From NCBI GenBank assembly GCA_000004985.1, contig GG738853.1: a stretch of DNA of 64,000 bases; one strand, written 5' to 3'. Below are positions 27,060-60,155 of the stretch, piece after piece. Origin of the DNA: Naegleria gruberi. Lineage: Eukaryota. The notes beneath the pieces are model-generated. The model saw only the letters and a list, made by a program, of their open reading frames with translations, did not search any database and was not told the DNA's origin. The translations under genes and the position numbers were made by a program. Each line of letters opens with the position of its first letter. Position 1 is the stretch's first letter.

Positions 27060-29939
27060 TTATAAATCTTCTTCTTCAAGAGGATCTGAATGTTTATGTT
27101 CTGTTGTTGTGGTATTGTGATTAGAATGTTCAAGACTTGAATCATTCTTTTCCTCATTATCATTATGAGGTGGTTGTTCAATGGTAATATCTTGATGTTT
27201 TGTATCCTCAGCCTTAACAATGTGATGTTCCTTCTTTGTATCATCAATTTCATGAACATCATTGAGAGGACTATCATCTCTATTAGTTTTAATAATTTTA
27301 TAATTCTCTTCATATTGAATAATATTTAAACCAGTTTGTTGATGAACATGTTCCAACACTAAAGGTAAAGTTAATTGAGTTGATTTTGTTAAATCTTGCA
27401 TTGTTAAATGATTGGATTGAATTTGTTTCTTAATTAATTCAGTTTCTTCAGGTTTAAAATCAAATAATAAATTAAATAGAGGCATTACAATAAATTCAAT
27501 AAAACCAGTTTGACATTTTGGTACATTTTGAGTATTTCTATCCATAAAAGGTGAAATATCAATTTTTAAATTTCTTTCAGTATCACCCTGATTATAAAAT
27601 TCAGTCATTACTCTATTAACCCATTTACCATAAACTTGATATGATTTTGTTGGATTTGAAACATCTGCACATTTAATTATTACTTTTAATAAGGCTAATA
27701 AACATTCCTTTCTTTCAATACTAAACTTTTCCTTATTAAATATATCATTGGATTTAATTTGACCAACAATTAAGAAATGTTGACTTATATCTGTTGCTAA
27801 TATCATTTCAACTATTAATTCTCTTAAATATTCATATTGATTACTTGACATATTTACAAATATATTAAATTCTTCCTTTCCTAGTATTTTAAATAAATTA
27901 TAACAATGAAAATTTTCTAAAATTGAACGATCATTAAACATGATTGCCTTTTCACTTCTTGTTTTCTTTTCAAATAAATTTGTAACTCCTGGATGACAAA
28001 CATCATGAGCTAAACATGCAACAACTAATGCTAATATATCTAATGGTACTAGATTGAAATTTAAATTATTTTCTAATGTAAAATTATTAAATTGAATAGA
28101 TTGAGATGATTGTGACTGTGATTGTGTTGATTGTGATTGAGATTGAGGTGAATGAGGTGAAGATGGACTTGTATGTGAAAAACATTTAACATATAAACTA
28201 ATAGCAGTTTGAACAACATCAGTTGCATGACAATTATTATGATATGGATTATTAAAATAATTAGATTCTACTTGTTTTAAGAATTTCTTCAAAGTACCAA
28301 TTGGTATATTCAATGGTCCAATTAAATCAAATGTTTGAAATATATATAAACATGTATAATATAATGGTTCACCTTCTGCAATCTTATTAAATTCAAATAC
28401 ATCAAATTTAAAATAATCCAATAAATTTTCTTTTAAATATTCCTTAACTTTCAATGGAATATCATCCTTAGGTACAATTGCTAATGAATCTTTGGCACTC
28501 TTTCTACCTATTGAACTCATTTCTTTTAAATAATTTGTAAATACTAATGCTTTAGTATATGCCTTAATACGTTTCTTCCATGATAAATCTGTACTATCTT
28601 CAACAAGTGATCCATGTAATACTTCAGATGATAACCATTTTTGTGTTTCAGAATCATGTTCATCTGATATTAAAATATCTTTAACAGTTGATTTAACTCC
28701 CATATTATGTGATGATGCTTTTGATACTAATAAACTTGCTAATGGTGATTTTGTTGAATTGGTGGCTGTTGGATCTGTTAAAATTAATTCAATTCTTGAA
28801 ACTAATTGTCTCACTTCATCATTTTCATGAGCTTTTAAAGAAGATATCAATTCAGTTAAATTACTACTAGTAGCACCACCTTTAGAATGATGATCATTAG
28901 ATACACTTGCTGTTATTGGTTGTGATGGTGGAGCTAAATCTTCTGGTGTAATTGGAGTATGTGGATCATCTTCAATTTTCTTAATATCATCACCCAGAAA
29001 TCCATCCTCTTCTTCATTAACATCTTGATTTGATGATCTTTGAGAAGATAAATGTAAAACTTCAACAGTTAAATTCTTTTCAGATTCTTGTTTTAATTTT
29101 AATTCCAAACTATGTTGTCTTTCTAAATCATCCTTCTTTTCAGAATCAAATTTTTGTTTCTGCAATTTTGAATATTTTGTAATCATCATAAAAGTATCTC
29201 TAATGTTAATATCAATATTATGTTTTAGAGGATATAAATGTAATGCAATTGTAATAACTTTTCCAACATCATTTTTCAATTTTTGGAAAACTTCAATTGA
29301 TTCATCTGGTTGAGGTTCAATTGTTAATTCTGAATTAAGAACACAATTTTGAACTGATAGAATAAATAAAGATAATTGTTCCTTTTCATTCGATGGACTA
29401 TCTTCAAATACCATAAATTTATCTTGATGAATACTTTCAGCATCTCTAATATGATAATAAAACTTATCTAAACCATCAGATAGAGAATAAATAACAATAT
29501 TCTTATCTACATTTGAAAATACACAAAACATAAAATCACTCTCCATTAATTGATGAGTGTTATAAGCAATTACCTCATCCATTCTATATAATACTCTCAT
29601 TAAATCTGTTTCCTTATCTTGATGTAAATCTTTACATGTTATATATCTTAGTGATTTTCCTTTTGGTATTTCAACTATAACAGAAGATTCAAAGGCTTCA
29701 TTGGATGAAGTGGTATCTTCCTTCTTTTCTTCTGCTTCATCCTTTATATTTGAAATTGGTTGAACAAGTGTAGATTGTGCTTTTTCATCCCTTGTTGATC
29801 GTTCTTGATGTGCTATTGTTGTAGTTGCTGATTTCCCCACATCTTGTGGTACATCATTGTCTTTATAACGATCATGACTATTTTGCTGAGGTTGAACACT
29901 ATTTGTTGTTGCACATCCAGCTGCATTACCCATTTTCAA
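27060..29939 (-). CDS. Class I 3',5'-cyclic-nucleotide phosphodiesterase with a roughly 480-aa N-terminal region; probable start is MGNAAGC (Gly2 myristoylation-type)
   Basis: YHNNCHATDVVQ and HDVCHPGVTNLF metal-binding signatures (HNxxH, HDxxH), with a catalytic helical core in the C-terminal half; single ORF. Confidence 0.75.
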   Translation of the reverse strand: MKMGNAAGCATTNSVQPQQNSHDRYKDNDVPQDVGKSATTTIAHQERSTRDEKAQSTLVQPISNIKDEAEEKKEDTTSSNEAFESSVIVEIPKGKSLRYITCKDLHQDKETDLMRVLYRMDEVIAYNTHQLMESDFMFCVFSNVDKNIVIYSLSDGLDKFYYHIRDAESIHQDKFMVFEDSPSNEKEQLSLFILSVQNCVLNSELTIEPQPDESIEVFQKLKNDVGKVITIALHLYPLKHNIDINIRDTFMMITKYSKLQKQKFDSEKKDDLERQHSLELKLKQESEKNLTVEVLHLSSQRSSNQDVNEEEDGFLGDDIKKIEDDPHTPITPEDLAPPSQPITASVSNDHHSKGGATSSNLTELISSLKAHENDEVRQLVSRIELILTDPTATNSTKSPLASLLVSKASSHNMGVKSTVKDILISDEHDSETQKWLSSEVLHGSLVEDSTDLSWKKRIKAYTKALVFTNYLKEMSSIGRKSAKDSLAIVPKDDIPLKVKEYLKENLLDYFKFDVFEFNKIAEGEPLYYTCLYIFQTFDLIGPLNIPIGTLKKFLKQVESNYFNNPYHNNCHATDVVQTAISLYVKCFSHTSPSSPHSPQSQSQSTQSQSQSSQSIQFNNFTLENNLNFNLVPLDILALVVACLAHDVCHPGVTNLFEKKTRSEKAIMFNDRSILENFHCYNLFKILGKEEFNIFVNMSSNQYEYLRELIVEMILATDISQHFLIVGQIKSNDIFNKEKFSIERKECLLALLKVIIKCADVSNPTKSYQVYGKWVNRVMTEFYNQGDTERNLKIDISPFMDRNTQNVPKCQTGFIEFIVMPLFNLLFDFKPEETELIKKQIQSNHLTMQDLTKSTQLTLPLVLEHVHQQTGLNIIQYEENYKIIKTNRDDSPLNDVHEIDDTKKEHHIVKAEDTKHQDITIEQPPHNDNEEKNDSSLEHSNHNTTTTEHKHSDPLEEEDL

Positions 29940-42329: not shown

Positions 42330-43703
42330 TTAATTTCCTAATATTGTTGGTGATGATGATGGTAAATATAATTCAGGATAACAATTATTCATTCTCGCTC
42401 TCAATAATTCAATTGAATAGTTAAGTGAAAATCCATTTTGATAAATTGCTTGTAAAATCATTTCCTCTGAAATTCTATTTGATGGAATGTAACCTACTAC
42501 ATACTTTAATACGAATCCATTTCTCTTAATAGCTTCAAGAATAAACTCTTCATTAGTTCTCAATTTAGATTCAGTGAAGACTAATGCTCTTCCACTTAGA
42601 CTGAGTGCAGTTAGTGCAATTTCTAAATCCAATTTAAATTCAGTATTTGCAACACAACTTATCATTAAACCATCTCCTTGAACAGCTTTCAAAGCTAATT
42701 CTCTATCAGTCTTACGTAATTGAGATGAAACCCATTCATAAGCATATGGAGTTTTAGTGACAGCTGTCATTGCTATTTCTCTATCATTTTGTAATTCTGT
42801 TGATGCCTCAGAAAGAGCTGACCCTGTTTGTTGAATTGCTGCCATTACAACTTGTTTATCATTTTTCAATCTTTTAGAAGCAAATCTTAAAGCAAAAGGT
42901 TCTCCTCTGTTGATTGCCATTAATATCAAATCCTTATCATCCATTAATTTCAATGCAAATGGTGAAATAATTTCAAGAGTTTTATATGCATTCTTATTGA
43001 TTGCTTCCATTATAACATCTCTATCCTTCTTAAATTGATTACTTAAATAGGAAAGTGTTTTTACATTTCTGGAAACAACTTTTAAAACCATTGATTTTTC
43101 CTTTTTAAATTTTTTAGGTGCTTTTTGGATAACAACTGCATTTGATTCAATTGCTTTCAATATCATTTCATCATCATTACATTTCTTATAATTAATTTCC
43201 GGTTGAGTTTTGTCGATTTTTGAATTTTTAATTTCTAAATATCTTTCTAATAGAATTGGATCTTTAAATATAGAATAATTATATGATAAATAATTAACTT
43301 CAATTGCTTTGAATATGAATTCTCTATCATTTCTCAATGAATAACTTGCTTGTTCAAGTAAATAAGGACACTCTCTAATAAATTGTAACATTAAATTCGA
43401 ATCTCCATTAACATTCTCTAATGAATCGGCGATTGAATATTTTTTATGAATTATTACTTTAATCCAATAAAATTCCTTATCACCCATAAATTCAATCGGA
43501 GTAAATTCATCATTTTTAGAAAATTCCCATCGATTGGTTAAATATTTCATTTTGTAAAATTGTTGATTCCTAAATTTACATTTCAACAATTCAAGTAATT
43601 GCTCCAAAGATGATGAAACAATGGTATGATTATTCGAATCATCATGATCACTACTATATTGAATATTAACGTCAGAGAAATTTGGTTTCATTTTTTTTAA
43701 CAT
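42330..43703 (-). CDS. DUF4116-repeat protein, 457 aa
   Basis: Tandem repeats of about 36 aa of the type D(R/K)E(I/L)xL.A(I/V)..NG.aL.Y....L; paralogous to the gene at 50890. Confidence 0.55.
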   Translation of the reverse strand: MLKKMKPNFSDVNIQYSSDHDDSNNHTIVSSSLEQLLELLKCKFRNQQFYKMKYLTNRWEFSKNDEFTPIEFMGDKEFYWIKVIIHKKYSIADSLENVNGDSNLMLQFIRECPYLLEQASYSLRNDREFIFKAIEVNYLSYNYSIFKDPILLERYLEIKNSKIDKTQPEINYKKCNDDEMILKAIESNAVVIQKAPKKFKKEKSMVLKVVSRNVKTLSYLSNQFKKDRDVIMEAINKNAYKTLEIISPFALKLMDDKDLILMAINRGEPFALRFASKRLKNDKQVVMAAIQQTGSALSEASTELQNDREIAMTAVTKTPYAYEWVSSQLRKTDRELALKAVQGDGLMISCVANTEFKLDLEIALTALSLSGRALVFTESKLRTNEEFILEAIKRNGFVLKYVVGYIPSNRISEEMILQAIYQNGFSLNYSIELLRARMNNCYPELYLPSSSPTILGN

Positions 43704-50889: not shown

Positions 50890-53800
50890 ATGCCCAAACA
50901 TTCCTTCACTGATTTGTTAATTGTTGCAATAAGTGATGATCATCATACTTCCGATGATGATAATGATGATGAACATGATTGTGATAAATTAATATTTAAA
51001 CATTTTCAACAAATTTCCTCTGCCAGAATTGAAAAAAACAAATCAATTTATAAGCATCTATTATTATTAGAAAACCGATTAGAAACCATTTCCACATTCA
51101 TTGAAAAATATCCATTTCCTGATAATGATTGTAAATTGGCAATTTTTAAAGCAGTGAGTAAAAATGGATTATTTCTGGAAGCAGCTTCTGCAAATTTGAG
51201 AAATGATGAGGAAATTGTAATGAGAGCTGTTAAAAAAAATGTAAATGCTATAGAGTTTGTGAGTGAAGAATTGAGAAGTGATAGAGAATTTGTGAAGAGG
51301 ATGATTGTTTCTGCAAGGGAAAGACTTGGTGGTACTTGTAGCTTTTTCAAACATCTCGACAAATTTCATGACGATGAGGAAATTGTAAAAATGATGGTGA
51401 AGAAATTTGCCAATTCTCTAGAATTTGTATCTACACGATTGAAGAATGAGAGGGAAATTATTTTGGAGGCTGTTAAAAGGAGAGGTTCATCTATTAGATT
51501 TGTACCAGAACATTTGATCGATAGAGAGGTGGTGTTAATATCTGTGAAAAGTTTTTTTCTGGCACTGAAATATGTACCTTCAGAGTTTTTAAATGATAGA
51601 GAAATTCTCTCTGCTGCTATTGACTTTTCAGGAATTTCAATGCAATATGCATCTGATGAGATTAAGAGTGATAGAGAGTTTGTTCTAGAAATGGTAAAAT
51701 TGAAGGGTGATTGTTATTGTTATATAGCAGGCCATCTCAAACTTGATAGGGAAATAGCCATAGAAGCTATAAAGACAAGTTCACAAAGTTTAAGATATGC
51801 ACCTGATCATTTCAAAGATGATGATGAAATTGTTTCAATAGCAGTTAGAAAAGATTTGTCCATTGTTTCTGCTGCTTCACAGAGATTTAGAGATAATGCT
51901 GATTTTATCTATGATATGGCTTCATCAGCATCTCGAGTGCTTGATTATATTACAAATTGTAATTATCCTTTGGCTAACGATAGAGAATTTAATCTAAGAT
52001 TGGTAGAAAAATTTGCCAATTACAGTGAGGATATTAAATATGCACTAAATCACGGAATAGAAAAGGAACTTATTTTGAAATTAATAGAGATAGATCCTGA
52101 TTGCTTTGTAAAGGTACAGAGTGAGGATATTAAGAATGATAGAAAATTATTATTCGATTTATTACCACATGGGGAGGAAATTCTTGACCTAATTCCTGAG
52201 AGTTTGAGTAATGACAGAGAACTCATTCTAAGAGCTGTGAAAATTTATCCTATCGCTTTAAAGATGGCTTCCGAGGAGCTGCGTGCTGATAGAGATATTG
52301 CTGTTCAGGCATTAATGTGTAGTGTTGATAACTTTGAGTTTTTATCAGAGGAATTAAGAAGTGATGGAAAGATAATAGAGGACATTCTTATTAGGGATGC
52401 CTATGTGTTGCAATTTGCGCCAGAATCATTTGGAAATGATAGAGAAATAATAACAACAGCTATCAGAAACTCATTCTCTAATACTTATTCTTTTATAGGG
52501 TATGAACTAAAGGAGGATAGGGAGCTTATTTTAGACTATGTAAAGAGATGTGGATCTATTGAAAATATTCTTCAAGATTTTCGAAACGATAGGGAAATTG
52601 TACTAACAGCTATTCAACAAAATGGAAGTGAATTTCAGTACGCCTCCAAATCTCTACGTAGTGATAGAGAGCTAGCATTAATTGCCGTCAGAAACTCATG
52701 TTCTTTAGAGCATGTACTTGTGGAAAAATTCGATAGAGAGCTTGTTTATGAAGCTTGCAAAATTGAATCAGAAAATCTTGAATATGCTTCAGAGTTTAGA
52801 GATGATGAAGATATTGTTATGGTGGCAGCTTGTTCTGATACTGGTTCAAAGTTTTTCCAGTACGCAAGTGATCGATTGAGAAATAATAGAGATTTTGTTT
52901 TGAAGGTTGCAAAGGTAAATGCTGGAATCATTCGATACATTTCAGAAGAGCTTTGTCAAGATAGGGAAATTATCATGACTGCTGTTTCAGCTGATGGAAA
53001 GTTATTAAAACATGCATCAGAAGAATTGAAAGGCGATAGACAAGTTGTGGAAAAGGCAATCAATTCATATTCTCGTTCCTTGAAATTTGCTTCTGAATAT
53101 TTAAGAAAAGATCAAGAGTTATTTGAAAAAGCTATATCAAAAGAATTAACCTATTCTCTCGCCACAAATAAGGAAATGATGAACAAAATTGATGTGAAAA
53201 TAATAGAGAAATGTGTGGTTGAACAAGGATATTCACTTAGTTATGTACCTGATTCTGTAAAAAGGAATAGAAGTCTTGTTATTAAGGCTGTAAATGCTGA
53301 CATGGATAATATTTTACATGTGCCACACGAGTTGATTGACAAGGAATTCATTATGGAATTGTCTCCAGCCAAGTTCAATATATTATTACTTCCACTCAAA
53401 TGGAGAAGAGATAGAGATATAGTATTGAAGGCATTGGAAAGTAATGGAAAAACAATAGTTTACCTTTCAGAGGAATTTAAAAATGAATTTAAAAACAACA
53501 GGGAAATATTACTGAAAGCAATGAAAACTGACAGCATTCCTTTCATTTATGCAAGTGAAGAATTACAAAATGATAGAGAATTTGTTTTGGAATCTGTTGC
53601 AACAAATGGAAAGGTATTAAATCACGTACCACTTGAATATCAGCTAGACAGAGAAATTGTCTTGACAGCTGTCAAAAATGATGGAAATTCTATTGAATTT
53701 GGAGCCACTTGCTTCATGAAAGATAGAGAAATTATGTGGAATGTAGTTCAAAACTTTTTATCAGAGAAAAATACATCCAATCCACTTATTTATGGCTCAT

Positions 53801-54087
53801 TTGAAATACGAAGTGATAGAGAACTAGTTCTGGAAGCTGTTCGACATGATTACAACGCCCTAGACTATGCTGCTCAAGAATTGTTATGTGATGAAGAATT
53901 TATGACCCAATGTGTGGAAATTAACATTAACAGTCTAATGTATGCCCATTATCAATTAAGATTCAACATTGATTTCCTTAAACGATTGAACAAGACAGAA
54001 ATTATTAGTGAAACAACTGATTTACATGACTGTATTGATATTGAAGGACTATTAGGATATTATCCAAAGTTAAAAGGTTTAATTTAA
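50890..54087 (+). CDS. DUF4116-repeat protein, 1065 aa (about 25 tandem units)
   Basis: Repeats such as REIVMRAVKKNVNAIEFVSEELRSDREFVKRMI and REIILEAVKRRGSSIRFVPEHLIDREVVL; acidic N-terminus. Confidence 0.6.
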   Translation: MPKHSFTDLLIVAISDDHHTSDDDNDDEHDCDKLIFKHFQQISSARIEKNKSIYKHLLLLENRLETISTFIEKYPFPDNDCKLAIFKAVSKNGLFLEAASANLRNDEEIVMRAVKKNVNAIEFVSEELRSDREFVKRMIVSARERLGGTCSFFKHLDKFHDDEEIVKMMVKKFANSLEFVSTRLKNEREIILEAVKRRGSSIRFVPEHLIDREVVLISVKSFFLALKYVPSEFLNDREILSAAIDFSGISMQYASDEIKSDREFVLEMVKLKGDCYCYIAGHLKLDREIAIEAIKTSSQSLRYAPDHFKDDDEIVSIAVRKDLSIVSAASQRFRDNADFIYDMASSASRVLDYITNCNYPLANDREFNLRLVEKFANYSEDIKYALNHGIEKELILKLIEIDPDCFVKVQSEDIKNDRKLLFDLLPHGEEILDLIPESLSNDRELILRAVKIYPIALKMASEELRADRDIAVQALMCSVDNFEFLSEELRSDGKIIEDILIRDAYVLQFAPESFGNDREIITTAIRNSFSNTYSFIGYELKEDRELILDYVKRCGSIENILQDFRNDREIVLTAIQQNGSEFQYASKSLRSDRELALIAVRNSCSLEHVLVEKFDRELVYEACKIESENLEYASEFRDDEDIVMVAACSDTGSKFFQYASDRLRNNRDFVLKVAKVNAGIIRYISEELCQDREIIMTAVSADGKLLKHASEELKGDRQVVEKAINSYSRSLKFASEYLRKDQELFEKAISKELTYSLATNKEMMNKIDVKIIEKCVVEQGYSLSYVPDSVKRNRSLVIKAVNADMDNILHVPHELIDKEFIMELSPAKFNILLLPLKWRRDRDIVLKALESNGKTIVYLSEEFKNEFKNNREILLKAMKTDSIPFIYASEELQNDREFVLESVATNGKVLNHVPLEYQLDREIVLTAVKNDGNSIEFGATCFMKDREIMWNVVQNFLSEKNTSNPLIYGSFEIRSDRELVLEAVRHDYNALDYAAQELLCDEEFMTQCVEININSLMYAHYQLRFNIDFLKRLNKTEIISETTDLHDCIDIEGLLGYYPKLKGLI

Positions 54088-54347: not shown

Positions 54348-55319
54348 ATGAAAGTGAATCTAATCTTTTCAATTGCAATTCTACTCTTGCTTGCAATCCT
54401 CTCAGTTCAAGCAAGTGACAACTATCAAACTAAACCTCCAGTTGTCGTAGTCGACAAGTATCACAAGCCAAGAGTTTGTAAGAGAAAATGCTTAAAGCAC
54501 AAGTGGATTAAGAAGTGTTTGAAACATAAACTCGTTGGTCAAAAGAAGGTCTGTGATCAATATGCAATTGTTGGCGCTGGCAAATGTCTCAAACATAAGA
54601 AATATTCCAAATGTGACAAGTACAGCAAGCCAACAAAGAAGTGTGTCTTACATGCATACAAGATTGTTGGATGCGCCAAGAAGAAGTACTGGAAAGTTTG
54701 CGATTCTTATGGAACTAAGAAGATTTGTGTTAAGAAGGGTTTCAAGAAATTCTGTGCCAAACACAAGATTATCAACAAGTGTTTCAAGAAGGGATTTAAG
54801 AAGGTCTGTAAGAAATTCAAGAAGGTTCCAATCAAGAAGTGTGAAAAGAAGAAGATTTGTGACAAGTACACTGTTGATTCCTACAATAAGAAGGTTGCCA
54901 AATGTAGATATGTTAAAAAGTGCAAGATTGTTTCATGGGCAAAGAAATGTGCCAAGTATAAGAAGGTTAAATATTGTAAGGAGAGAAAATCTGTTAAGAA
55001 GTGTTGTCTCATTAAGAAGAAATTCTTCTGTGCCAAGCATAAGATCTTCAAGTTCTGTAAGCACAAGAAGACTATTTCCAAATGTGTCAAATATCAAAAG
55101 AAGAAGTATTGTGCCAAGACAATTATTATTCCTCCAAGATGTATCAAGAAGAAGTATTATAAGAAGTGTTTGAAACGTTCAAAGGGAAAGAAGATTTGTA
55201 AGAAATTTAAGTTGGTTGGTGGAAAGAAGAAGTGTTGCAAGTCAATCAAGAAGAAGATTTGTATCAAGAGAAAGACATGTAAGAAGGTATCAAAGCCAAT
55301 CATCAAACCATCCTTGTAA
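54348..55319 (+). CDS. Secreted, extremely Lys- and Cys-rich repetitive protein, 323 aa
   Basis: Signal peptide MKVNLIFSIAILLLLAILSVQAS, then reiterated CxKHK / KKGFKKxC / KKC units. Roughly one third Lys and about 12% Cys. The +1-frame ORF 54535-55173 is a shadow of the AAG repeats. Confidence 0.6.
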   Translation: MKVNLIFSIAILLLLAILSVQASDNYQTKPPVVVVDKYHKPRVCKRKCLKHKWIKKCLKHKLVGQKKVCDQYAIVGAGKCLKHKKYSKCDKYSKPTKKCVLHAYKIVGCAKKKYWKVCDSYGTKKICVKKGFKKFCAKHKIINKCFKKGFKKVCKKFKKVPIKKCEKKKICDKYTVDSYNKKVAKCRYVKKCKIVSWAKKCAKYKKVKYCKERKSVKKCCLIKKKFFCAKHKIFKFCKHKKTISKCVKYQKKKYCAKTIIIPPRCIKKKYYKKCLKRSKGKKICKKFKLVGGKKKCCKSIKKKICIKRKTCKKVSKPIIKPSL

Positions 55320-55403: not shown

Positions 55404-56999
55404 TTATTTTGAATTATTCACAACAGCAATCTCAGTTGAGGTTGACTTCTTTTTAGTGGAAGCTCCACTATTATCTAAACTTGTAATACCAATTACATCA
55501 GGAATTACAGGATTACTTGATGGGAGAGTTGTTTGAGTAATTTGTAATGGTTGCTTAATTTCAGATGATTCAAGAGCAGCAGGTTGTTCAGTAGATGCTG
55601 TTATAGCAGCTTGTTCCTCTGGTTTTTCTTCTGGTTTCTTTTCTTCTGTTGGTTTTTCTCCTTCAGGTGCAGGTTGTTCAGATGTTTGTTCTGGTGCATT
55701 TGGTGGTGGATGATAGAACCATGTTGGAGTTAATGAAACTTTAAGAGCTTCCCAAAGAGCAAATCCAGCATCATGTCGAACTTTTTGATTGGACAAAATT
55801 CCAGTAACAAACACTTCAGCATGTTGTTGAACATTTTGATCATCCATTACATTGTGAACAGTGTGCATTCCCAATTCTGATCCACTTTGTTTTACAACAT
55901 CATATAAAATTACAGAGGCAAATAGGTCTGCAACATGTTGTCTGAAAGCTTCATCTTTAAGTGCATTATTCAATAAAATAACCAAGTGATCTTTTGTTTC
56001 TGGTTTATCAATAATTTTCCAAGCAAATTCTGAAGCTACTTGTATAGTATATTCGTCTCGTAAAAGGTATAACGCTATTCTTTCTTTAGCAAATTGTGAA
56101 ACATATTCTTGAGTGATTGGATCTTGAAGAACTTGTAATAAAAGAGTAACTAGTAATTGTTGAGTTTCCTTTCTAGAAATTAAATCTTTCAAAAAATTGA
56201 CAGCATGTTCAGTAGTCTTTGCATCACTTAATACTTGTTGAACTACTGCCTTACTGAGTACTTCTGCACTCATTTGAACACTTTCTGATCCTAAAGATCT
56301 AGAGGCCACATCAGCACCATGTTGACTGAAGAAATTCTTAATATCTTCACTAAATAAGAAAATGAAAACAGCAAGACCAAGTGATGTTGTAACTAAAACT
56401 CTAAATGTTGAATAACCTCTTCTCTTTAACATCATATCCAATTCATTGGCTAAATTTCTAATTTTTTGTGTGTAAAAGTGATGTTCAGGATTGACCACAG
56501 CAGGAGGAACAGGATCACGAATTTGTGATGTCGGATTAGTAACAATTGGTTGTTGTTGCTGTGTTTCACCAATATTAGATTCTGTTATTGGTGGTGGTGT
56601 TGTTGTTGTTGATGTGGTTGGTGGTGTTGTTGTAGATGATTCATTCGTAGATGATGGTGATGTAATTTGTTCATCAACATTTGTTTTGATCTTTTCTTCT
56701 TCAAGAGGTGTAGAATTCACTTCTAAAGGCTTTTCTGTATTATTGTTAGATTTACTATCATCATTAGATAAATTTGATGAAGTAAAAGCAGGTTGTTTCT
56801 TTCTTGCTGAATTGACAATACAAATATGAAAGCCTTTTCTATTAATCATGTTCGGAACATTGAAATCACATAATGATGATTTCAAAGATCCTCCAAATCG
56901 CCCTCCTCCAACAATTGGACGATGAATTATCAATGATGAAGAAAAACTTGGAGCTGATTTCAATTTTCTTGCTAAGAATCGTGCGGCAAGTTTTTTCAT
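55404..56999 (-). CDS. Hypothetical single-pass membrane protein with a basic presequence-like N-terminus (possibly mitochondrial), 531 aa
   Basis: MKKLAARFLARKLKSAPSFSS..., a Thr/Pro linker, the TM segment VLVTTSLGLAVFIFLF, then a helical domain. Confidence 0.45.
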   Translation of the reverse strand: MKKLAARFLARKLKSAPSFSSSLIIHRPIVGGGRFGGSLKSSLCDFNVPNMINRKGFHICIVNSARKKQPAFTSSNLSNDDSKSNNNTEKPLEVNSTPLEEEKIKTNVDEQITSPSSTNESSTTTPPTTSTTTTPPPITESNIGETQQQQPIVTNPTSQIRDPVPPAVVNPEHHFYTQKIRNLANELDMMLKRRGYSTFRVLVTTSLGLAVFIFLFSEDIKNFFSQHGADVASRSLGSESVQMSAEVLSKAVVQQVLSDAKTTEHAVNFLKDLISRKETQQLLVTLLLQVLQDPITQEYVSQFAKERIALYLLRDEYTIQVASEFAWKIIDKPETKDHLVILLNNALKDEAFRQHVADLFASVILYDVVKQSGSELGMHTVHNVMDDQNVQQHAEVFVTGILSNQKVRHDAGFALWEALKVSLTPTWFYHPPPNAPEQTSEQPAPEGEKPTEEKKPEEKPEEQAAITASTEQPAALESSEIKQPLQITQTTLPSSNPVIPDVIGITSLDNSGASTKKKSTSTEIAVVNNSK

Positions 57000-57109: not shown

Positions 57110-58825
57110 TTAATCTTTCAAAGATGTAATGAAGGATGCAAATTCTGTATTGGAATTTTTCAATCTTTCGAATAAATCGGTCATGTCAATCAGACAATGT
57201 TGTTGAATTTTGTGAAATAGATTGGCAGGTGGTTTTTCAGTTAGTTGGGAAGTTATTTCAGAATTACATTGTTCAATTTTTGGAATGTTGAGCTCTAGGG
57301 GACTATTAATTGATAAGTACACTTGTAAAATGTGATTTGCAATCTTTTTTCTGTTTTTGGTTGACCTTTTGTATCTTTGAATATCTTTCCAACATTGTAA
57401 ACTCTCAGTGCAATAACTTCTTCTTGCAAAATCCAACATTATTTTAAACATCTTCTTATTTTTCAAAACTTTTTCAATATTTGATTCATTACTTTCATTG
57501 GAATTCAATTTTGTGTAATCGAAATAAATTGATCGAATTACTGGTATTGTACAACACATAAATAATTCAAAATACATGTAACCCCAAATGAAAAACCCAT
57601 AGGGAACATAATAATCTACCAATTCAGATATTACCTCAATACTTCCACATATAATAAATAATATTGCTGAGAGTAATTGAACTATGGTTACAATAAATGA
57701 TTCCTTCTTAATTCCCCACGTATCCTTATCTGCCTTAACACACAATGCAAGAAATATCAATTCCAAAATGACATAGCCAACTACCTCCAATCCAATAGTT
57801 AGAACAGTATAGAAAGTCATTGAACATCCATGTCTGAATTCAAACATACTCGATTCAACCACAAATATTCGATTGTTAGAATTGGAATTGAGTGCTTCAT
57901 CAATTCCTCCAAGAATGGCCCAAATAATAAATCCAAATATAAATGAACATAAATAAACTGTTCCCATAAATTTTGTACTGACTAGAAAATTGTAAATTTG
58001 TAATTTTCTCATTTCCTTTTTTAGAGAAGCCATATCTTTAACATCAGCAGCTGACCATGTTGTTGAAATAGTGTCATTATCTAAATCATCAGTACTGGCA
58101 CTAGATGTTCTATTAGATGAACCTCCATCAGAATGATATGATGAATTTTCAACTGGTTGTTGATGCTCATTATTTCCTTTGATAGTATTGGAAACTTCTT
58201 GTAAATTGACTCCATGTACTTGAAATGAATCCATTTTTGTAATGACAAGTTCTGCTCCACTATTTGGTGGTAAGCTTTCAATAGATTCCAATGTTAATTG
58301 TTGATCCACTAATTCATGTTTCTTTGATTCTGAATCAATTGTATTCGATTCAAATAGTTTCGTCTTGGTTAAATTAATCTTGTACATGAAGAAAGCTCTC
58401 ATAAATCTAAATATTAATGGCAATGCAATCGCCTGTGGGAATGTAAAGAAGCCAATTGTCATCAAACCACATGGAAATGTCTTGCTCGACACTATTCTCC
58501 TCAATGTCAACACAACAACAAACCAAATCGAAGCTCCCAAAGTAAAAAACAAATAAACTGGATTCCTAGCACTAACATAACTACTATTCCTCTTCCATAT
58601 TACTCCCAACAATGAAAAAACCAGTGTTATCAAATAAACTATTAGAAACGTTAATGTAATTGCGAAGGAAAAATAAGTGTCTGGACAAAGTCCATAATTT
58701 AAAGTTGCATTTGATGATTCCCTGCTCCAGGGCGTATTCATAAGTGAAGGATGACATCTACTAGCGTTTTGATTGTTATTATTGATTAATTGAAGAACAG
58801 AGAAGAGATTGTTAAATGGCGACAT
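57110..58825 (-). CDS. Seven-transmembrane protein with a C-terminal RGS domain (7TM-RGS architecture, as in plant RGS1)
   Basis: Seven hydrophobic helices (three, then a long loop, then four). The C-terminal MFKIMLDFARRSYCTESLQCWKDIQRYKRS...IANHILQVYLSINSPLELNI matches the RGS fold consensus. Confidence 0.6.
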   Translation of the reverse strand: MSPFNNLFSVLQLINNNNQNASRCHPSLMNTPWSRESSNATLNYGLCPDTYFSFAITLTFLIVYLITLVFSLLGVIWKRNSSYVSARNPVYLFFTLGASIWFVVVLTLRRIVSSKTFPCGLMTIGFFTFPQAIALPLIFRFMRAFFMYKINLTKTKLFESNTIDSESKKHELVDQQLTLESIESLPPNSGAELVITKMDSFQVHGVNLQEVSNTIKGNNEHQQPVENSSYHSDGGSSNRTSSASTDDLDNDTISTTWSAADVKDMASLKKEMRKLQIYNFLVSTKFMGTVYLCSFIFGFIIWAILGGIDEALNSNSNNRIFVVESSMFEFRHGCSMTFYTVLTIGLEVVGYVILELIFLALCVKADKDTWGIKKESFIVTIVQLLSAILFIICGSIEVISELVDYYVPYGFFIWGYMYFELFMCCTIPVIRSIYFDYTKLNSNESNESNIEKVLKNKKMFKIMLDFARRSYCTESLQCWKDIQRYKRSTKNRKKIANHILQVYLSINSPLELNIPKIEQCNSEITSQLTEKPPANLFHKIQQHCLIDMTDLFERLKNSNTEFASFITSLKD

Positions 58826-59003
58826 TTTTTTCTTGAATGAACTTGTGATGACAATTCCCTAAATGGATGACAGCTAGTCCAAATTAGTATATTTATGTCA
58901 ATTTGCCATTATAAAACATACGACAATGGTTGTAAAGATATTAATAATATATTAATATATTTACAGTTAATTTTATTGAATTGAAATTGCTTCAACTCTT
59001 GCT

Positions 59004-59228
59004 TTATTTTCCTTCATCTGAAAGAGAAGCTTTAAGTATTTCCAAATCAAGCGAACCCTTTGGAAATCTGAAAGATTTAGAGAATTGGAAATGACCATTT
59101 TCTGTTTTCTTTTCAGCACTAATTGTAATCAAATCACCAAGTGAATTTTCCTTAATCTTTACCTCAATATCTTTCTTTTCAAACACATCTCTTGGAATGT
59201 TATTAATATCAAGTGAGAGCTCATCCAT
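59004..59228 (-). pseudogene. Truncated duplicate of the small heat-shock (alpha-crystallin domain) gene at 61044
   Basis: About 255 bp (59008-59262) is roughly 97% identical to 61108-61362. The ORF stops early (…SLSDEGK*) and lacks the upstream region. Confidence 0.55.
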
Positions 59229-59615
59229 CTTGATTAATAGTTCTAATCACAAATGGAAACGGACTTTTCGTCAACCTGTATGAAAGAAATGATCAAGACT
59301 TTCAGGGGATATGGTATTAAAGAGTAAGCGATTTACAGATAAAATCTCATTGGCGAAAATCGTAGTTATCATTCGCATTGTAAAAATGGCAAAAGAAGAA
59401 CAATGAACAGTAGAATGGGATTGACCAAATATGTATTCAATACCAAAGTTGTTGTTTACAATGAGATTGTTCTAAATAGTTTCAAATATGTTTAGTATAA
59501 TTAGCAAGGTACGACTAGATTACAACAGTTTGCCTTCCTTTTTAGAGAAACAAAATAATCATCGGTTGACATTTACTTATCAAAAAAACTGAGCAAACTA
59601 TTTACCATCGTTTTT

Positions 59616-60155
59616 GTGGTCGGCATTTCTTTGTGTTGCGCCACTCTACTTGCAGCCTGTTCCTTCTTCATTGCTTCAATAGTTGTCAATTCAACTGCAG
59701 ATAAATTACAGGAAGAATTCTTCGACATTGTCAATGTTAAGATTACAGCCAAAATTGTCAATGTTTTCAATAATTGTAAAACCTATAGAAGAGAGACAGA
59801 ATGTTATCCAATTGTTCGAATGGTTGATTTCTATCCATTCCAAATAGAAAATGTTACAAACCCAAACAGCAATAACACAGTTACGAGAGCAACAACCATG
59901 GCCACATCCAATCTTTCAAAACTAAAAGTGGATGAGATTATTTCTCTCTACATTGAAGTGAATACAACACCATCCACAAGTTCTAAAATTACATGGAAGA
60001 AGGTAATGTATGAAAAACCTGGAAATCCAAAATATGATGAATATCAATACTACAAGGCCGTTTTTAGCCCACTTCTTTATATCATGCTGGCTTTATTTTG
60101 TCTTACTTTTATTTTCTTGTTTCTTCTTTTTGGTCTTATGTTTGCAAGCAGATAA
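59616..60155 (+). CDS. Non-ATG ORF with N- and C-terminal hydrophobic segments in a compositionally atypical island; doubtful gene
   Basis: GC-ending codons (gtc, ggc, gcc, ctg) atypical for this genome; NxT sites; no start codon. Confidence 0.2.
   Translation: MVGISLCCATLLAACSFFIASIVVNSTADKLQEEFFDIVNVKITAKIVNVFNNCKTYRRETECYPIVRMVDFYPFQIENVTNPNSNNTVTRATTMATSNLSKLKVDEIISLYIEVNTTPSTSSKITWKKVMYEKPGNPKYDEYQYYKAVFSPLLYIMLALFCLTFIFLFLLFGLMFASR

What the first reader, a model, noticed from the sequence alone, without database searches (positions are those of the whole stretch)
57110..58825. 7TM-RGS protein (receptor-like GAP)
Seven predicted helices are followed by a C-terminal RGS box, the architecture of plant AtRGS1, in which a receptor-like protein is itself the G-alpha GTPase-activating protein. 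The long loop between TM3 and TM4 (about 140 aa, Ser/Asp-rich) is unusual.
Basis: partly seen in the sequence, partly recalled or inferred. Interest (0 to 1): 0.55.

Follow-up and report, generated by a model that had tools for sequence, protein, structure and literature searches.

The report
Naegleria seven-helix receptor fused to RGS
This is a real Naegleria gruberi gene for a receptor-shaped membrane protein carrying its own G-protein "off switch" (an RGS domain); the design is already known in Naegleria and plants, so it is a new member of a known kind, and its public gene model is wrongly truncated.

Summary
Window 57110..58825 (-) is one uninterrupted 571-codon ORF. It encodes a short extracellular N-terminus, seven TM helices, a 138-aa TM3-TM4 loop and a C-terminal RGS box (Pfam PF00615, 42.2 bits against a cutoff of 23.9).

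The 7TM domain defines a family found only in Heterolobosea among members that could be named: 191 representative clusters, and 48 of 59 long members carry RGS. The long Ser/Thr- and acid-rich ICL2 is an insertion confined to the clade with named Naegleria and Willaertia members. Its sequence is not conserved but its composition is.

The architecture is not new. Bosch et al. 2022 reported 28 7TM-RGS proteins in N. fowleri and showed GAP activity for three, from a different large-ectodomain subgroup.

New here: the public model (481 aa) splices a spurious upstream exon across 1173 nt and loses TM1-3; the fold is class C-like; and ICL2 is expanded. Interest is modest.

The parts
57110..58825 (-). 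Complete intronless CDS of the 7TM-RGS protein (571 aa plus stop)
   Evidence: ORF listing. Eleven paralogues/orthologues each align to it by tblastn in one collinear HSP, together spanning 58765..57113. P(no stop by chance) is about 7e-21.
58679..58825 (-). Extracellular N-terminal segment, aa 1-49. It carries two N-glycosylation sequons (N20, N39) and two clade-conserved cysteines (C24, C47).
   Evidence: Sequons and charge distribution. C24/C47 conservation in the long-loop clade. pLDDT rises above 84 from about aa 21.
58388..58678 (-). TM1-TM3 (aa 50-146). Includes near-invariant R109, P118 and C119 at the extracellular end of TM3. The public gene model lacks most of this block (everything upstream of 58433).
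   Evidence: Hydropathy, AF2 helices 51-77, 89-112 and 119-174, conservation, comparison with P0001.
57974..58387 (-). Expanded second intracellular loop (ICL2), aa 147-284. It consists of the cytoplasmic helical extension of TM3 (147-174), a disordered Ser/Thr/Asn- and acid-rich segment (175-258 = 58052..58303), and a helix leading into TM4 (259-282).
   Evidence: AF2 secondary structure and pLDDT, composition. No conserved interior positions. The compositional bias is conserved in 35/35 (S/T) and 33/35 (D/E) long-loop relatives.
57500..57973 (-). TM4-TM7 (aa 285-442). Contains an ECL2 beta-hairpin with invariant G333-C334, a short and highly conserved ICL3 motif (A)DKDTWGIKKE (aa 365-375), and invariant P428 in TM7.
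   Evidence: AF2 model, invariant columns, ICL3 motif across 59 members.
57116..57481 (-). RGS box (aa 449-570), joined to TM7 by about 6 residues. E474, N513, D550 and R554 correspond to RGS4 E87, N128, D163 and R167. S475 replaces RGS4 N88.
   Evidence: Pfam, PDB sequence hits to RGS17/5/6/10/8/4, alignment to rat RGS4, family conservation, fold matches.
59606..59728 (-). Spurious first exon of the public N. gruberi gene model P0001 (MSKNSS...TKTM). That model joins it to 58432 across a 1173-nt 'intron' (58433..59605). It is not part of the gene.
   Evidence: Mapping of the P0001 N-terminus, with GT at 59605 and AG before 58432. The 'intron' contains the conserved TM1-3 coding sequence and a separate HSP20-like ORF.

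Best explanation
The gene encodes a plasma-membrane 7TM-RGS protein of Naegleria gruberi. A GPCR-fold seven-helix module, structurally closest to class C receptors, has an extracellular N-terminus about 49 aa long and a TM3-ECL2 cysteine pair. Its TM7 runs almost directly (about a 6-residue linker) into a canonical cytoplasmic RGS box.

The most likely mechanism is that of AtRGS1 and the N. fowleri 7TM-RGS proteins. The membrane-tethered RGS box binds the transition state of one or more of Naegleria's many G-alpha subunits, some of which exchange nucleotide spontaneously, and accelerates GTP hydrolysis. This holds signalling off. An unknown extracellular or membrane cue acting on the 7TM module then changes GAP availability.

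The expanded ICL2 has a helical stalk and a disordered, acidic, Ser/Thr-rich tip. I take it to be a regulatory element, either a phosphorylation or adaptor-docking site, or an occluder of the surface where class C receptors engage G proteins.

Shown here: the ORF, the domain architecture, the fold, conservation of the G-alpha contact residues, the family distribution, and the gene-model error. Inferred: GAP activity of this particular protein, topology, ligand regulation, and the role of the loop.
For: Architecture and fold:
- RGS Pfam hit above threshold.
- AF2 model with pLDDT 83.1 and pTM 0.75.

Catalytic-interface residues:
- E474, N513, D550 and R554 align with RGS4 E87, N128, D163 and R167.
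- E and N are invariant, and D and R nearly so, across divergent family members.

Topology (N-terminus out, C-terminus in):
- N-terminal sequons, and four conserved Cys confined to the predicted extracellular segments.
- No Cys in the cytoplasmic loops, and K/R enrichment of ICL1, ICL3 and the ICL2 flanks.

Family:
- A 7TM-only profile finds 191 representative clusters at E<=1e-3.
- 48 of 59 long members carry RGS.
- Named members come from N. gruberi, N. lovaniensis, N. fowleri, Willaertia magna and Pharyngomonas kirbyi.

Precedent:
- N. fowleri encodes 28 7TM-RGS proteins.
- The RGS boxes of Nf 7TM RGS2-4 accelerate GTP hydrolysis on Nf G-alpha 2/3/5/7, and a switch-I G-to-S mutation abolishes this.
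- Nf G-alpha 5 and 7 are self-activating (PMC9283941).
- N. gruberi has 229 RGS proteins and 30-44 G-alpha subunits (PMC3971589; PMC8584482; PMC5784254).

Loop: length 92-309 aa. The S/T and acidic bias is conserved in 35/35 and 33/35 relatives, although no interior position is conserved.
Against: - No biochemical or expression data exist for this protein.
- RGS4 N88 is replaced by Ser, and the family has S, A or P at that position.
- The biochemically tested N. fowleri proteins are 1215-2459 aa with EGF/lectin/GPS ectodomains. No protein longer than 798 aa is among the top 150 hits of the 7TM profile, so they belong to a different 7TM subgroup.
- The window protein has no Pfam 7tm_3 hit. The best hit in the family is 28.8 bits against a cutoff of 33.5, in P0099. 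Class C affinity therefore rests on a predicted structure.
- The ligand, the cognate G-alpha and the role of the loop are all unknown.
Confidence: 0.72

Rival explanations
1. It is a bifunctional GPCR-RGS. On ligand binding, the class C-like 7TM module acts as a genuine exchange factor for slow-exchanging G-alpha subunits. The fused RGS box then terminates the signal, giving a self-limiting receptor rather than a pure GAP receptor.
For: The GPCR fold has a conserved TM3-ECL2 Cys pair, conserved charged residues at the cytoplasmic ends of TM3 and TM6 (R140, E375), and a conserved ICL3. Naegleria has both slow-exchanging and self-activating G-alpha subunits, and both types engage 7TM-RGS proteins (PMC9283941).
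Against: No 7TM-RGS protein has been shown to have GEF activity in the literature read here. The 90-300 aa ICL2 sits where class C receptors engage G proteins (my own knowledge of the mGlu2/GABA-B-Gi structures). A large insertion there, with the RGS tethered about 6 residues from TM7, might hinder productive heterotrimer docking. This last point is inference.
Confidence: 0.15
2. The RGS box is a non-catalytic G-alpha-binding or scaffolding module, like GRK RH domains or RGS-RhoGEF-type effectors. On this view the protein is a G-alpha effector or anchor rather than a GAP.
For: Some RGS domains have lost GAP activity (PMC3971589 citing Anantharaman 2011). N88 is substituted. GRK RH domains appear among the weaker Foldseek hits.
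Against: The best sequence and fold matches are canonical R4/RZ RGS domains, not RH domains. The Asn equivalent to RGS4 N128 and the Glu equivalent to E87 are invariant in the family. Even the N. fowleri RGS-RhoGEF uses a canonical GAP-type interface.
Confidence: 0.07
3. The public gene model is right. The mRNA starts at 59728 and splices 59605 to 58433, and the product is a 481-aa protein with only about four TM helices plus RGS.
For: GT and AG dinucleotides lie at the proposed junctions. The model is the one deposited in NCBI/UniProt.
Against: The proposed 1173-nt intron would contain an in-frame, stop-free extension encoding TM1-3. That extension is conserved in sequence with more than 30 relatives, including the invariant P118-C119. 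The intron would also contain a separate HSP20-like ORF. The proposed exon 1 has no counterpart in any relative and lies antisense to another ORF. The full-length protein gives a confident GPCR fold.
Confidence: 0.03
4. It is a non-functional or unexpressed member of a large, rapidly duplicating family, i.e. a recent pseudogene that is still open.
For: N. gruberi has 229 RGS genes. The family is highly paralogous with tandem duplicates. No expression data were available here.
Against: The ORF is an intact 571 codons in a 31 % GC genome. Every family-invariant residue is retained in both the 7TM and RGS modules.
Confidence: 0.03

Closest known systems
Naegleria fowleri 7TM RGS proteins (28 genes; Nf 7TM RGS2-4 characterised; Bosch, Jeck & Siderovski 2022, PMC9283941)
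   Same: [quoted passage not shown] The family studied here has an N. fowleri member, FDP41_001330 (P0017).
   Different: The tested proteins are 1215-2459 aa with EGF-like, lectin and GPS ectodomains of the adhesion-GPCR type. This protein has a 49-aa N-terminus, a class C-like bundle and an expanded ICL2. No hit longer than 798 aa appears among the top 150 hits of its 7TM profile.
Arabidopsis AtRGS1 (plant 7TM-RGS)
   Same: [quoted passage not shown]
   Different: Homology of the two 7TM modules was not tested. By my own knowledge, AtRGS1 carries its regulatory phospho-cluster in the C-terminal tail and has no long ICL2. Here the Ser/Thr-rich element is ICL2 and the protein ends with the RGS box. 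Plants have one such gene, whereas Heterolobosea have a large radiation.
Metazoan class C orphan receptors GPR158/GPR179 with RGS7-Gbeta5 (PDB 7shf, 7ewp)
   Different: In metazoans the RGS is a separate protein recruited in trans, and the receptor has a large ectodomain and forms dimers. Here the RGS is fused in cis and the ectodomain is minimal. There is no sequence-level relationship.
Class C GPCRs (Pfam 7tm_3: mGlu, GABA-B, TAS1R, GPRC5, GPR156)
   Different: The window protein has no significant 7tm_3 sequence match. Two relatives have sub-threshold hits only. It has no Venus-flytrap or Cys-rich domain, and it carries an RGS fusion.
Trichomonas vaginalis and other protist or early-fungal 7TM-RGS proteins
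   Same: The same fused architecture is reported in many bikonts, chytrids, filastereans and ichthyosporeans (PMC3971589).
   Different: The relationship of the 7TM modules is unknown. RGS architectures are reported to arise repeatedly and independently.

Membership tests
RGS domain (Pfam PF00615) | Profile score above the curated gathering threshold | tested here: met
   42.2 bits against 23.9, E 1.2e-10, aa 450-548.
RGS domain (Pfam PF00615) | All-helical RGS-box fold | tested here: met
RGS domain (Pfam PF00615) | G-alpha switch-contact residues of canonical GAP-active RGS boxes (RGS4 E87, N88, N128, D163, R167) | tested here: met
   E474, N513, D550 and R554 are conserved. N88 is replaced by S475. 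E and N are invariant, and D and R nearly so, across the family. Four of five residues are met.
RGS domain (Pfam PF00615) | GTPase-accelerating activity on a G-alpha subunit | not testable with these tools
   Requires a biochemical assay. Demonstrated only for other Naegleria 7TM-RGS proteins (PMC9283941).
7TM-RGS architecture (AtRGS1 type) | Seven transmembrane helices N-terminal to the RGS box | tested here: met
7TM-RGS architecture (AtRGS1 type) | RGS box on the cytoplasmic face (N-terminus out, C-terminus in) | tested here: met
   This is a prediction only. It rests on N-terminal sequons, conserved Cys restricted to the predicted extracellular segments, positive-inside charge bias, and an odd helix number.
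7TM-RGS architecture (AtRGS1 type) | 7TM module homologous to that of AtRGS1 | not tested
7TM-RGS architecture (AtRGS1 type) | Partner G-alpha that self-activates, so that the GAP is rate-limiting | not testable with these tools
   Shown for N. fowleri G-alpha 5 and 7. N. gruberi G-alpha kinetics are unknown to me.
Naegleria/Heterolobosea 7TM-RGS radiation | Heterolobosean origin and significant similarity of both modules to other heterolobosean 7TM-RGS proteins | tested here: met
   The window is 100 % identical to an N. gruberi protein over its shared part, window aa 132-571. Relatives occur in N. lovaniensis, N. fowleri, Willaertia and Pharyngomonas. 48/59 carry RGS.
Naegleria/Heterolobosea 7TM-RGS radiation | Same 7TM subgroup as the biochemically characterised Nf 7TM RGS1-4 | tested here: inconclusive
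   No protein longer than 798 aa is in the top 150 hits of the 7TM profile, and the tested proteins are 1215 aa or longer. Their sequences could not be retrieved for a direct comparison.
Class C GPCR (Pfam 7tm_3, PF00003) | 7tm_3 profile score above the gathering threshold | tested here: not met
   No hit for the window protein at E<=1. The best hits in relatives are 28.8 bits (P0099) and 16.8 bits (P0142), against a cutoff of 33.5.
Class C GPCR (Pfam 7tm_3, PF00003) | 7TM bundle geometry closest to class C structures | tested here: met
Class C GPCR (Pfam 7tm_3, PF00003) | Large ligand-binding ectodomain (Venus flytrap, with or without a Cys-rich domain) | tested here: not met
   The N-terminus is only 49 aa with no domain hit. 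By my own knowledge, some class C members (GPRC5, GPR156) also lack this ectodomain.

The most novel reading that the evidence does not exclude
A class C-type 7TM module was coupled to an RGS GAP long before animals. In Heterolobosea the two are fused in cis. In one clade ICL2, the loop class C receptors use to engage G proteins, has expanded into a helical stalk with a phospho-regulated disordered tip. This loop would block GEF-type coupling and gate access of G-alpha-GTP to the RGS box tethered about 6 residues from TM7. On this reading the protein is a ligand-gated GAP switch whose logic parallels metazoan GPR158/179-RGS7, but built into one polypeptide.
Probability: 0.15. Interest if true: 0.55.

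Novelty: new member of a known kind. Interest (0 to 1): 0.3.

Why it matters
7TM-RGS proteins are central to the model in which G-alpha subunits activate spontaneously and are controlled by GAPs rather than by exchange factors. Naegleria is the one lineage in which both regimes have been shown to coexist.

This gene adds a compact subfamily with a minimal ectodomain and a class C-like fold. That subfamily would be easier to express and dissect than the very large adhesion-like N. fowleri proteins studied so far.

The corrected gene model also matters for surveys that count TM helices in RGS proteins. The deposited 481-aa model lacks TM1-3, so it would not be scored as 7TM.

Beyond that, the finding is confirmatory rather than surprising.

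Tried and rejected
- First AF2 run with the 12-sequence alignment: mean pLDDT 55.5, too weak to classify the 7TM part. It was superseded by the 59-sequence run.
- Word-index homology searches with the 7TM-only alignment (9 hits) and the RGS-only alignment (2 hits) added almost nothing. The exhaustive profile search was what revealed the family.
- 7TM profile against PDB sequences: no meaningful hit.
- NCBIfam: only a spurious sub-threshold hit.
- Exact-sequence look-ups of the window protein and of P0001 for genomic context: not on record.
- The afdb50 fold library was unavailable, so AtRGS1 and other predicted 7TM-RGS models could not be compared.
- Bradford et al. 2013 could not be read.
- I considered that the long loop might be an unspliced in-frame intron, and rejected it. 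The chance of 84 stop-free codons is about 1e-3, and of 138 about 1e-5. Its GC content equals that of the flanking coding sequence. Every close relative has an in-frame loop of 92-309 aa with the same compositional bias. The public model also treats it as coding.
- I looked for a second paralogue or another G-protein signalling gene next to it. tblastn found only this one copy in the window, and none of the 15 other ORFs scanned against Pfam is a G-alpha, G-beta or RGS protein.

Full report
**What is there.** The minus strand of window 57110..58825 carries one uninterrupted ORF of 571 codons starting with ATG. The window averages about 30 % GC. At that composition the chance of 571 codons without a stop is about 7e-21. 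From residue 132 to the C-terminus the translated protein is identical to a deposited 'predicted protein [Naegleria gruberi]' (P0001). The window is therefore N. gruberi nuclear DNA. Its neighbours are ordinary eukaryotic genes: MCM, a V/A-ATPase subunit, DnaJ-TPR, an aminotransferase, a cyclic-nucleotide phosphodiesterase and DUF4116-repeat proteins.

**Checking the observation.**
- *RGS box.* Pfam RGS (PF00615) matches residues 450-548 at 42.2 bits against a gathering score of 23.9. PDB sequence searches with the C-terminal 136 aa return only RGS domains (RGS17, 5, 6, 10, 8, 4 and others).
- *Helices.* Kyte-Doolittle analysis gives hydrophobic segments at 50-79, 88-112, 121-139, 285-312, 336-366 and 374-405, plus a weaker seventh around 408-432.
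- *First model.* An AlphaFold run on 12 sequences was poor, at pLDDT 55.5.
- *Second model.* With 59 relatives the model is confident: mean pLDDT 83.1, pTM 0.75, 394 residues at 90 or above. It shows helices 51-77, 89-112, 119-174, 284-316, 338-363, 372-406 and 411-442, followed by the RGS helices 449-570.
- *Loop.* Between the TM3 and TM4 cores lie 138 residues (147-284). The model reads 147-174 and 259-282 as cytoplasmic helical extensions of TM3 and TM4, and 175-258 as disordered. The loop is enriched in S, T, D, E and N and has net charge -7.

**Gene model.** The deposited model P0001 (481 aa) starts with 41 residues encoded at 59728..59606. It then jumps across a 1173-nt 'intron' (GT at 59605, AG before 58432) into the middle of TM3. 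Four results argue against it:
- That 'intron' holds the in-frame TM1-TM3 coding sequence, which is conserved in all full-length relatives.
- Eleven relatives each align to the window by tblastn in a single collinear HSP, together spanning 58765 to 57113.
- The 'intron' also contains a separate small HSP20-like ORF.
- The supposed exon 1 has no counterpart in any relative and is antisense to another ORF.

The intronless 571-aa reading is therefore correct and the public model is truncated. No exact full-length entry was found in the protein or contig collections.

**The 7TM module.** It has no Pfam hit and no sequence hit in the PDB.
- *Weak sequence link.* Two relatives give sub-threshold 7tm_3 hits: P0099 at 28.8 bits and P0142 at 16.8 bits, against a cutoff of 33.5.
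- *Conserved features.* These include a near-invariant cysteine at the top of TM3 (C119) and an invariant one in ECL2 (C334), the classical GPCR disulfide positions. There is also a short, strongly conserved ICL3 (D-R/K-D-T-W-x-I-K-x-E), conserved charges at the cytoplasmic ends of TM3 (R140) and TM6 (E375), and an invariant TM7 proline.
- *Orientation.* Sequons and conserved cysteines lie only on the predicted outside, and K/R are enriched inside. This supports N-terminus out and C-terminus in, which puts the RGS box in the cytoplasm.
- *Linker.* TM7 ends at 442 and the RGS box starts at 449, so the RGS box is held right under the bundle.

**Family and distribution.** A profile of the 7TM region alone was searched exhaustively against 1.84 billion representative proteins. 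It finds 191 clusters at E<=1e-3 and 78 at E<=1e-30. Of 59 long members, 48 have a Pfam RGS domain. Those without RGS that I examined lack the C-terminal region, and at least one of them (P0012) comes from a very short contig. Named members come from N. gruberi, N. lovaniensis, N. fowleri (FDP41_001330), Willaertia magna and Pharyngomonas kirbyi. The rest are unnamed metagenome or read-assembly contigs. As far as I could see, the family is restricted to Heterolobosea.

**The long loop.**
- In the clade with named Naegleria and Willaertia members the TM3-TM4 loop is 92-309 aa. In the distant members, including Pharyngomonas, it is 9-50 aa.
- Interior positions are not conserved. Only the basic stretch after TM3 (YKINLxKTKLF) and the helix before TM4 are.
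- The composition is conserved. S+T is 24 % in the loop against 14 % elsewhere (35/35 members). D+E is 15 % against 8 % (33/35). The loop is net negative in 30/35.

This pattern is typical of a functional disordered region. I infer a phospho-regulated or adaptor-binding element. By my own knowledge, ICL2 is the main G-protein-contacting loop of class C receptors, so an insertion there may also affect how G proteins approach.

I considered that the loop might be an unspliced intron and rejected the idea (details under tried and rejected).

**What is already known.**
- Bosch, Jeck and Siderovski (2022; PMC9283941) reported 28 7TM-RGS genes in N. fowleri.
- They showed that the RGS boxes of Nf 7TM RGS2-4 are selective GAPs for Nf G-alpha 2, 3, 5 and 7 through a canonical interface.
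- They also showed that Nf G-alpha 5 and 7 self-activate.
- Those proteins are 1215-2459 aa with EGF, lectin and GPS ectodomains. They are not among the top hits of this family's 7TM profile, where the longest hit is 798 aa.
- de Mendoza et al. (2014; PMC3971589) counted 229 RGS proteins in N. gruberi and noted 7TM-RGS architectures in many bikonts.
- The AtRGS1 paradigm is summarised.

**Mechanism and verdict.** The best-supported reading is a membrane GAP of the AtRGS1 and Naegleria 7TM-RGS kind (confidence about 0.7). The rivals are a bifunctional GEF+GAP receptor (0.15), a non-catalytic RGS scaffold (0.07), the public 4TM model being correct (0.03), and a silent gene (0.03).

New here are:
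- the corrected gene model;
- the recognition of a compact subfamily with a minimal ectodomain and a class C-like fold;
- the clade-specific, compositionally conserved ICL2 expansion;
- the parallel with metazoan GPR158-RGS7.

I rate it a new member of a known kind, with modest interest (0.3).

Noticed in passing
window 54348..55319 (+): A 323-aa ORF with a signal-peptide-like N-terminus. It is extremely Lys- and Cys-rich, with reiterated 'KKC.KHK'-type motifs, and has no Pfam hit. It looks like a secreted, highly basic Cys-repeat protein.
   Followed up: partly
window 59004..59228 (-): A 74-aa ORF with a sub-threshold HSP20/alpha-crystallin match (16.5 bits against 20.8). It lies inside the 1173-nt 'intron' of the public model of the RGS gene.
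   Followed up: partly
window 59606..59728 (-) and 59616..60155 (+): The spurious first exon of the public model P0001 overlaps, in antisense, a 179-aa ORF with hydrophobic N- and C-terminal segments. Which strand, if either, is really coding here was not resolved.
   Followed up: no
window 50890..54087 (+) and 42330..43703 (-); also P0104: The window holds two DUF4116-repeat proteins, with 19 and 7 repeats. A distant member of the 7TM-RGS family (P0104, 736 aa) combines an RGS box with 11 DUF4116 repeats, so this repeat is sometimes joined to RGS signalling proteins.
   Followed up: no
window 27060..29939 (-): A 959-aa ORF with a strong class I 3'5'-cyclic-nucleotide phosphodiesterase domain (236.9 bits) and a long uncharacterised N-terminal region.
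   Followed up: no
window 55404..56999 (-): A 531-aa ORF starting only about 110 bp downstream of the RGS gene's stop codon. It has Thr/Pro/Gln-rich low-complexity stretches and one hydrophobic segment, with no significant Pfam hit.
   Followed up: partly
N. lovaniensis proteins P0004 and P0013 (locus tags C9374_011232 and C9374_011233): Two family members carry adjacent locus tags, which indicates tandem duplication of these 7TM-RGS genes in N. lovaniensis. Only one copy lies in this N. gruberi window.
   Followed up: partly
P0017 (N. fowleri FDP41_001330, 508 aa), P0083, P0085, P0086: Several deposited family members end right after TM7 and lack the RGS box. This looks like further gene-model truncation rather than true RGS-less paralogues, but it was not checked against genomic DNA.
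   Followed up: no
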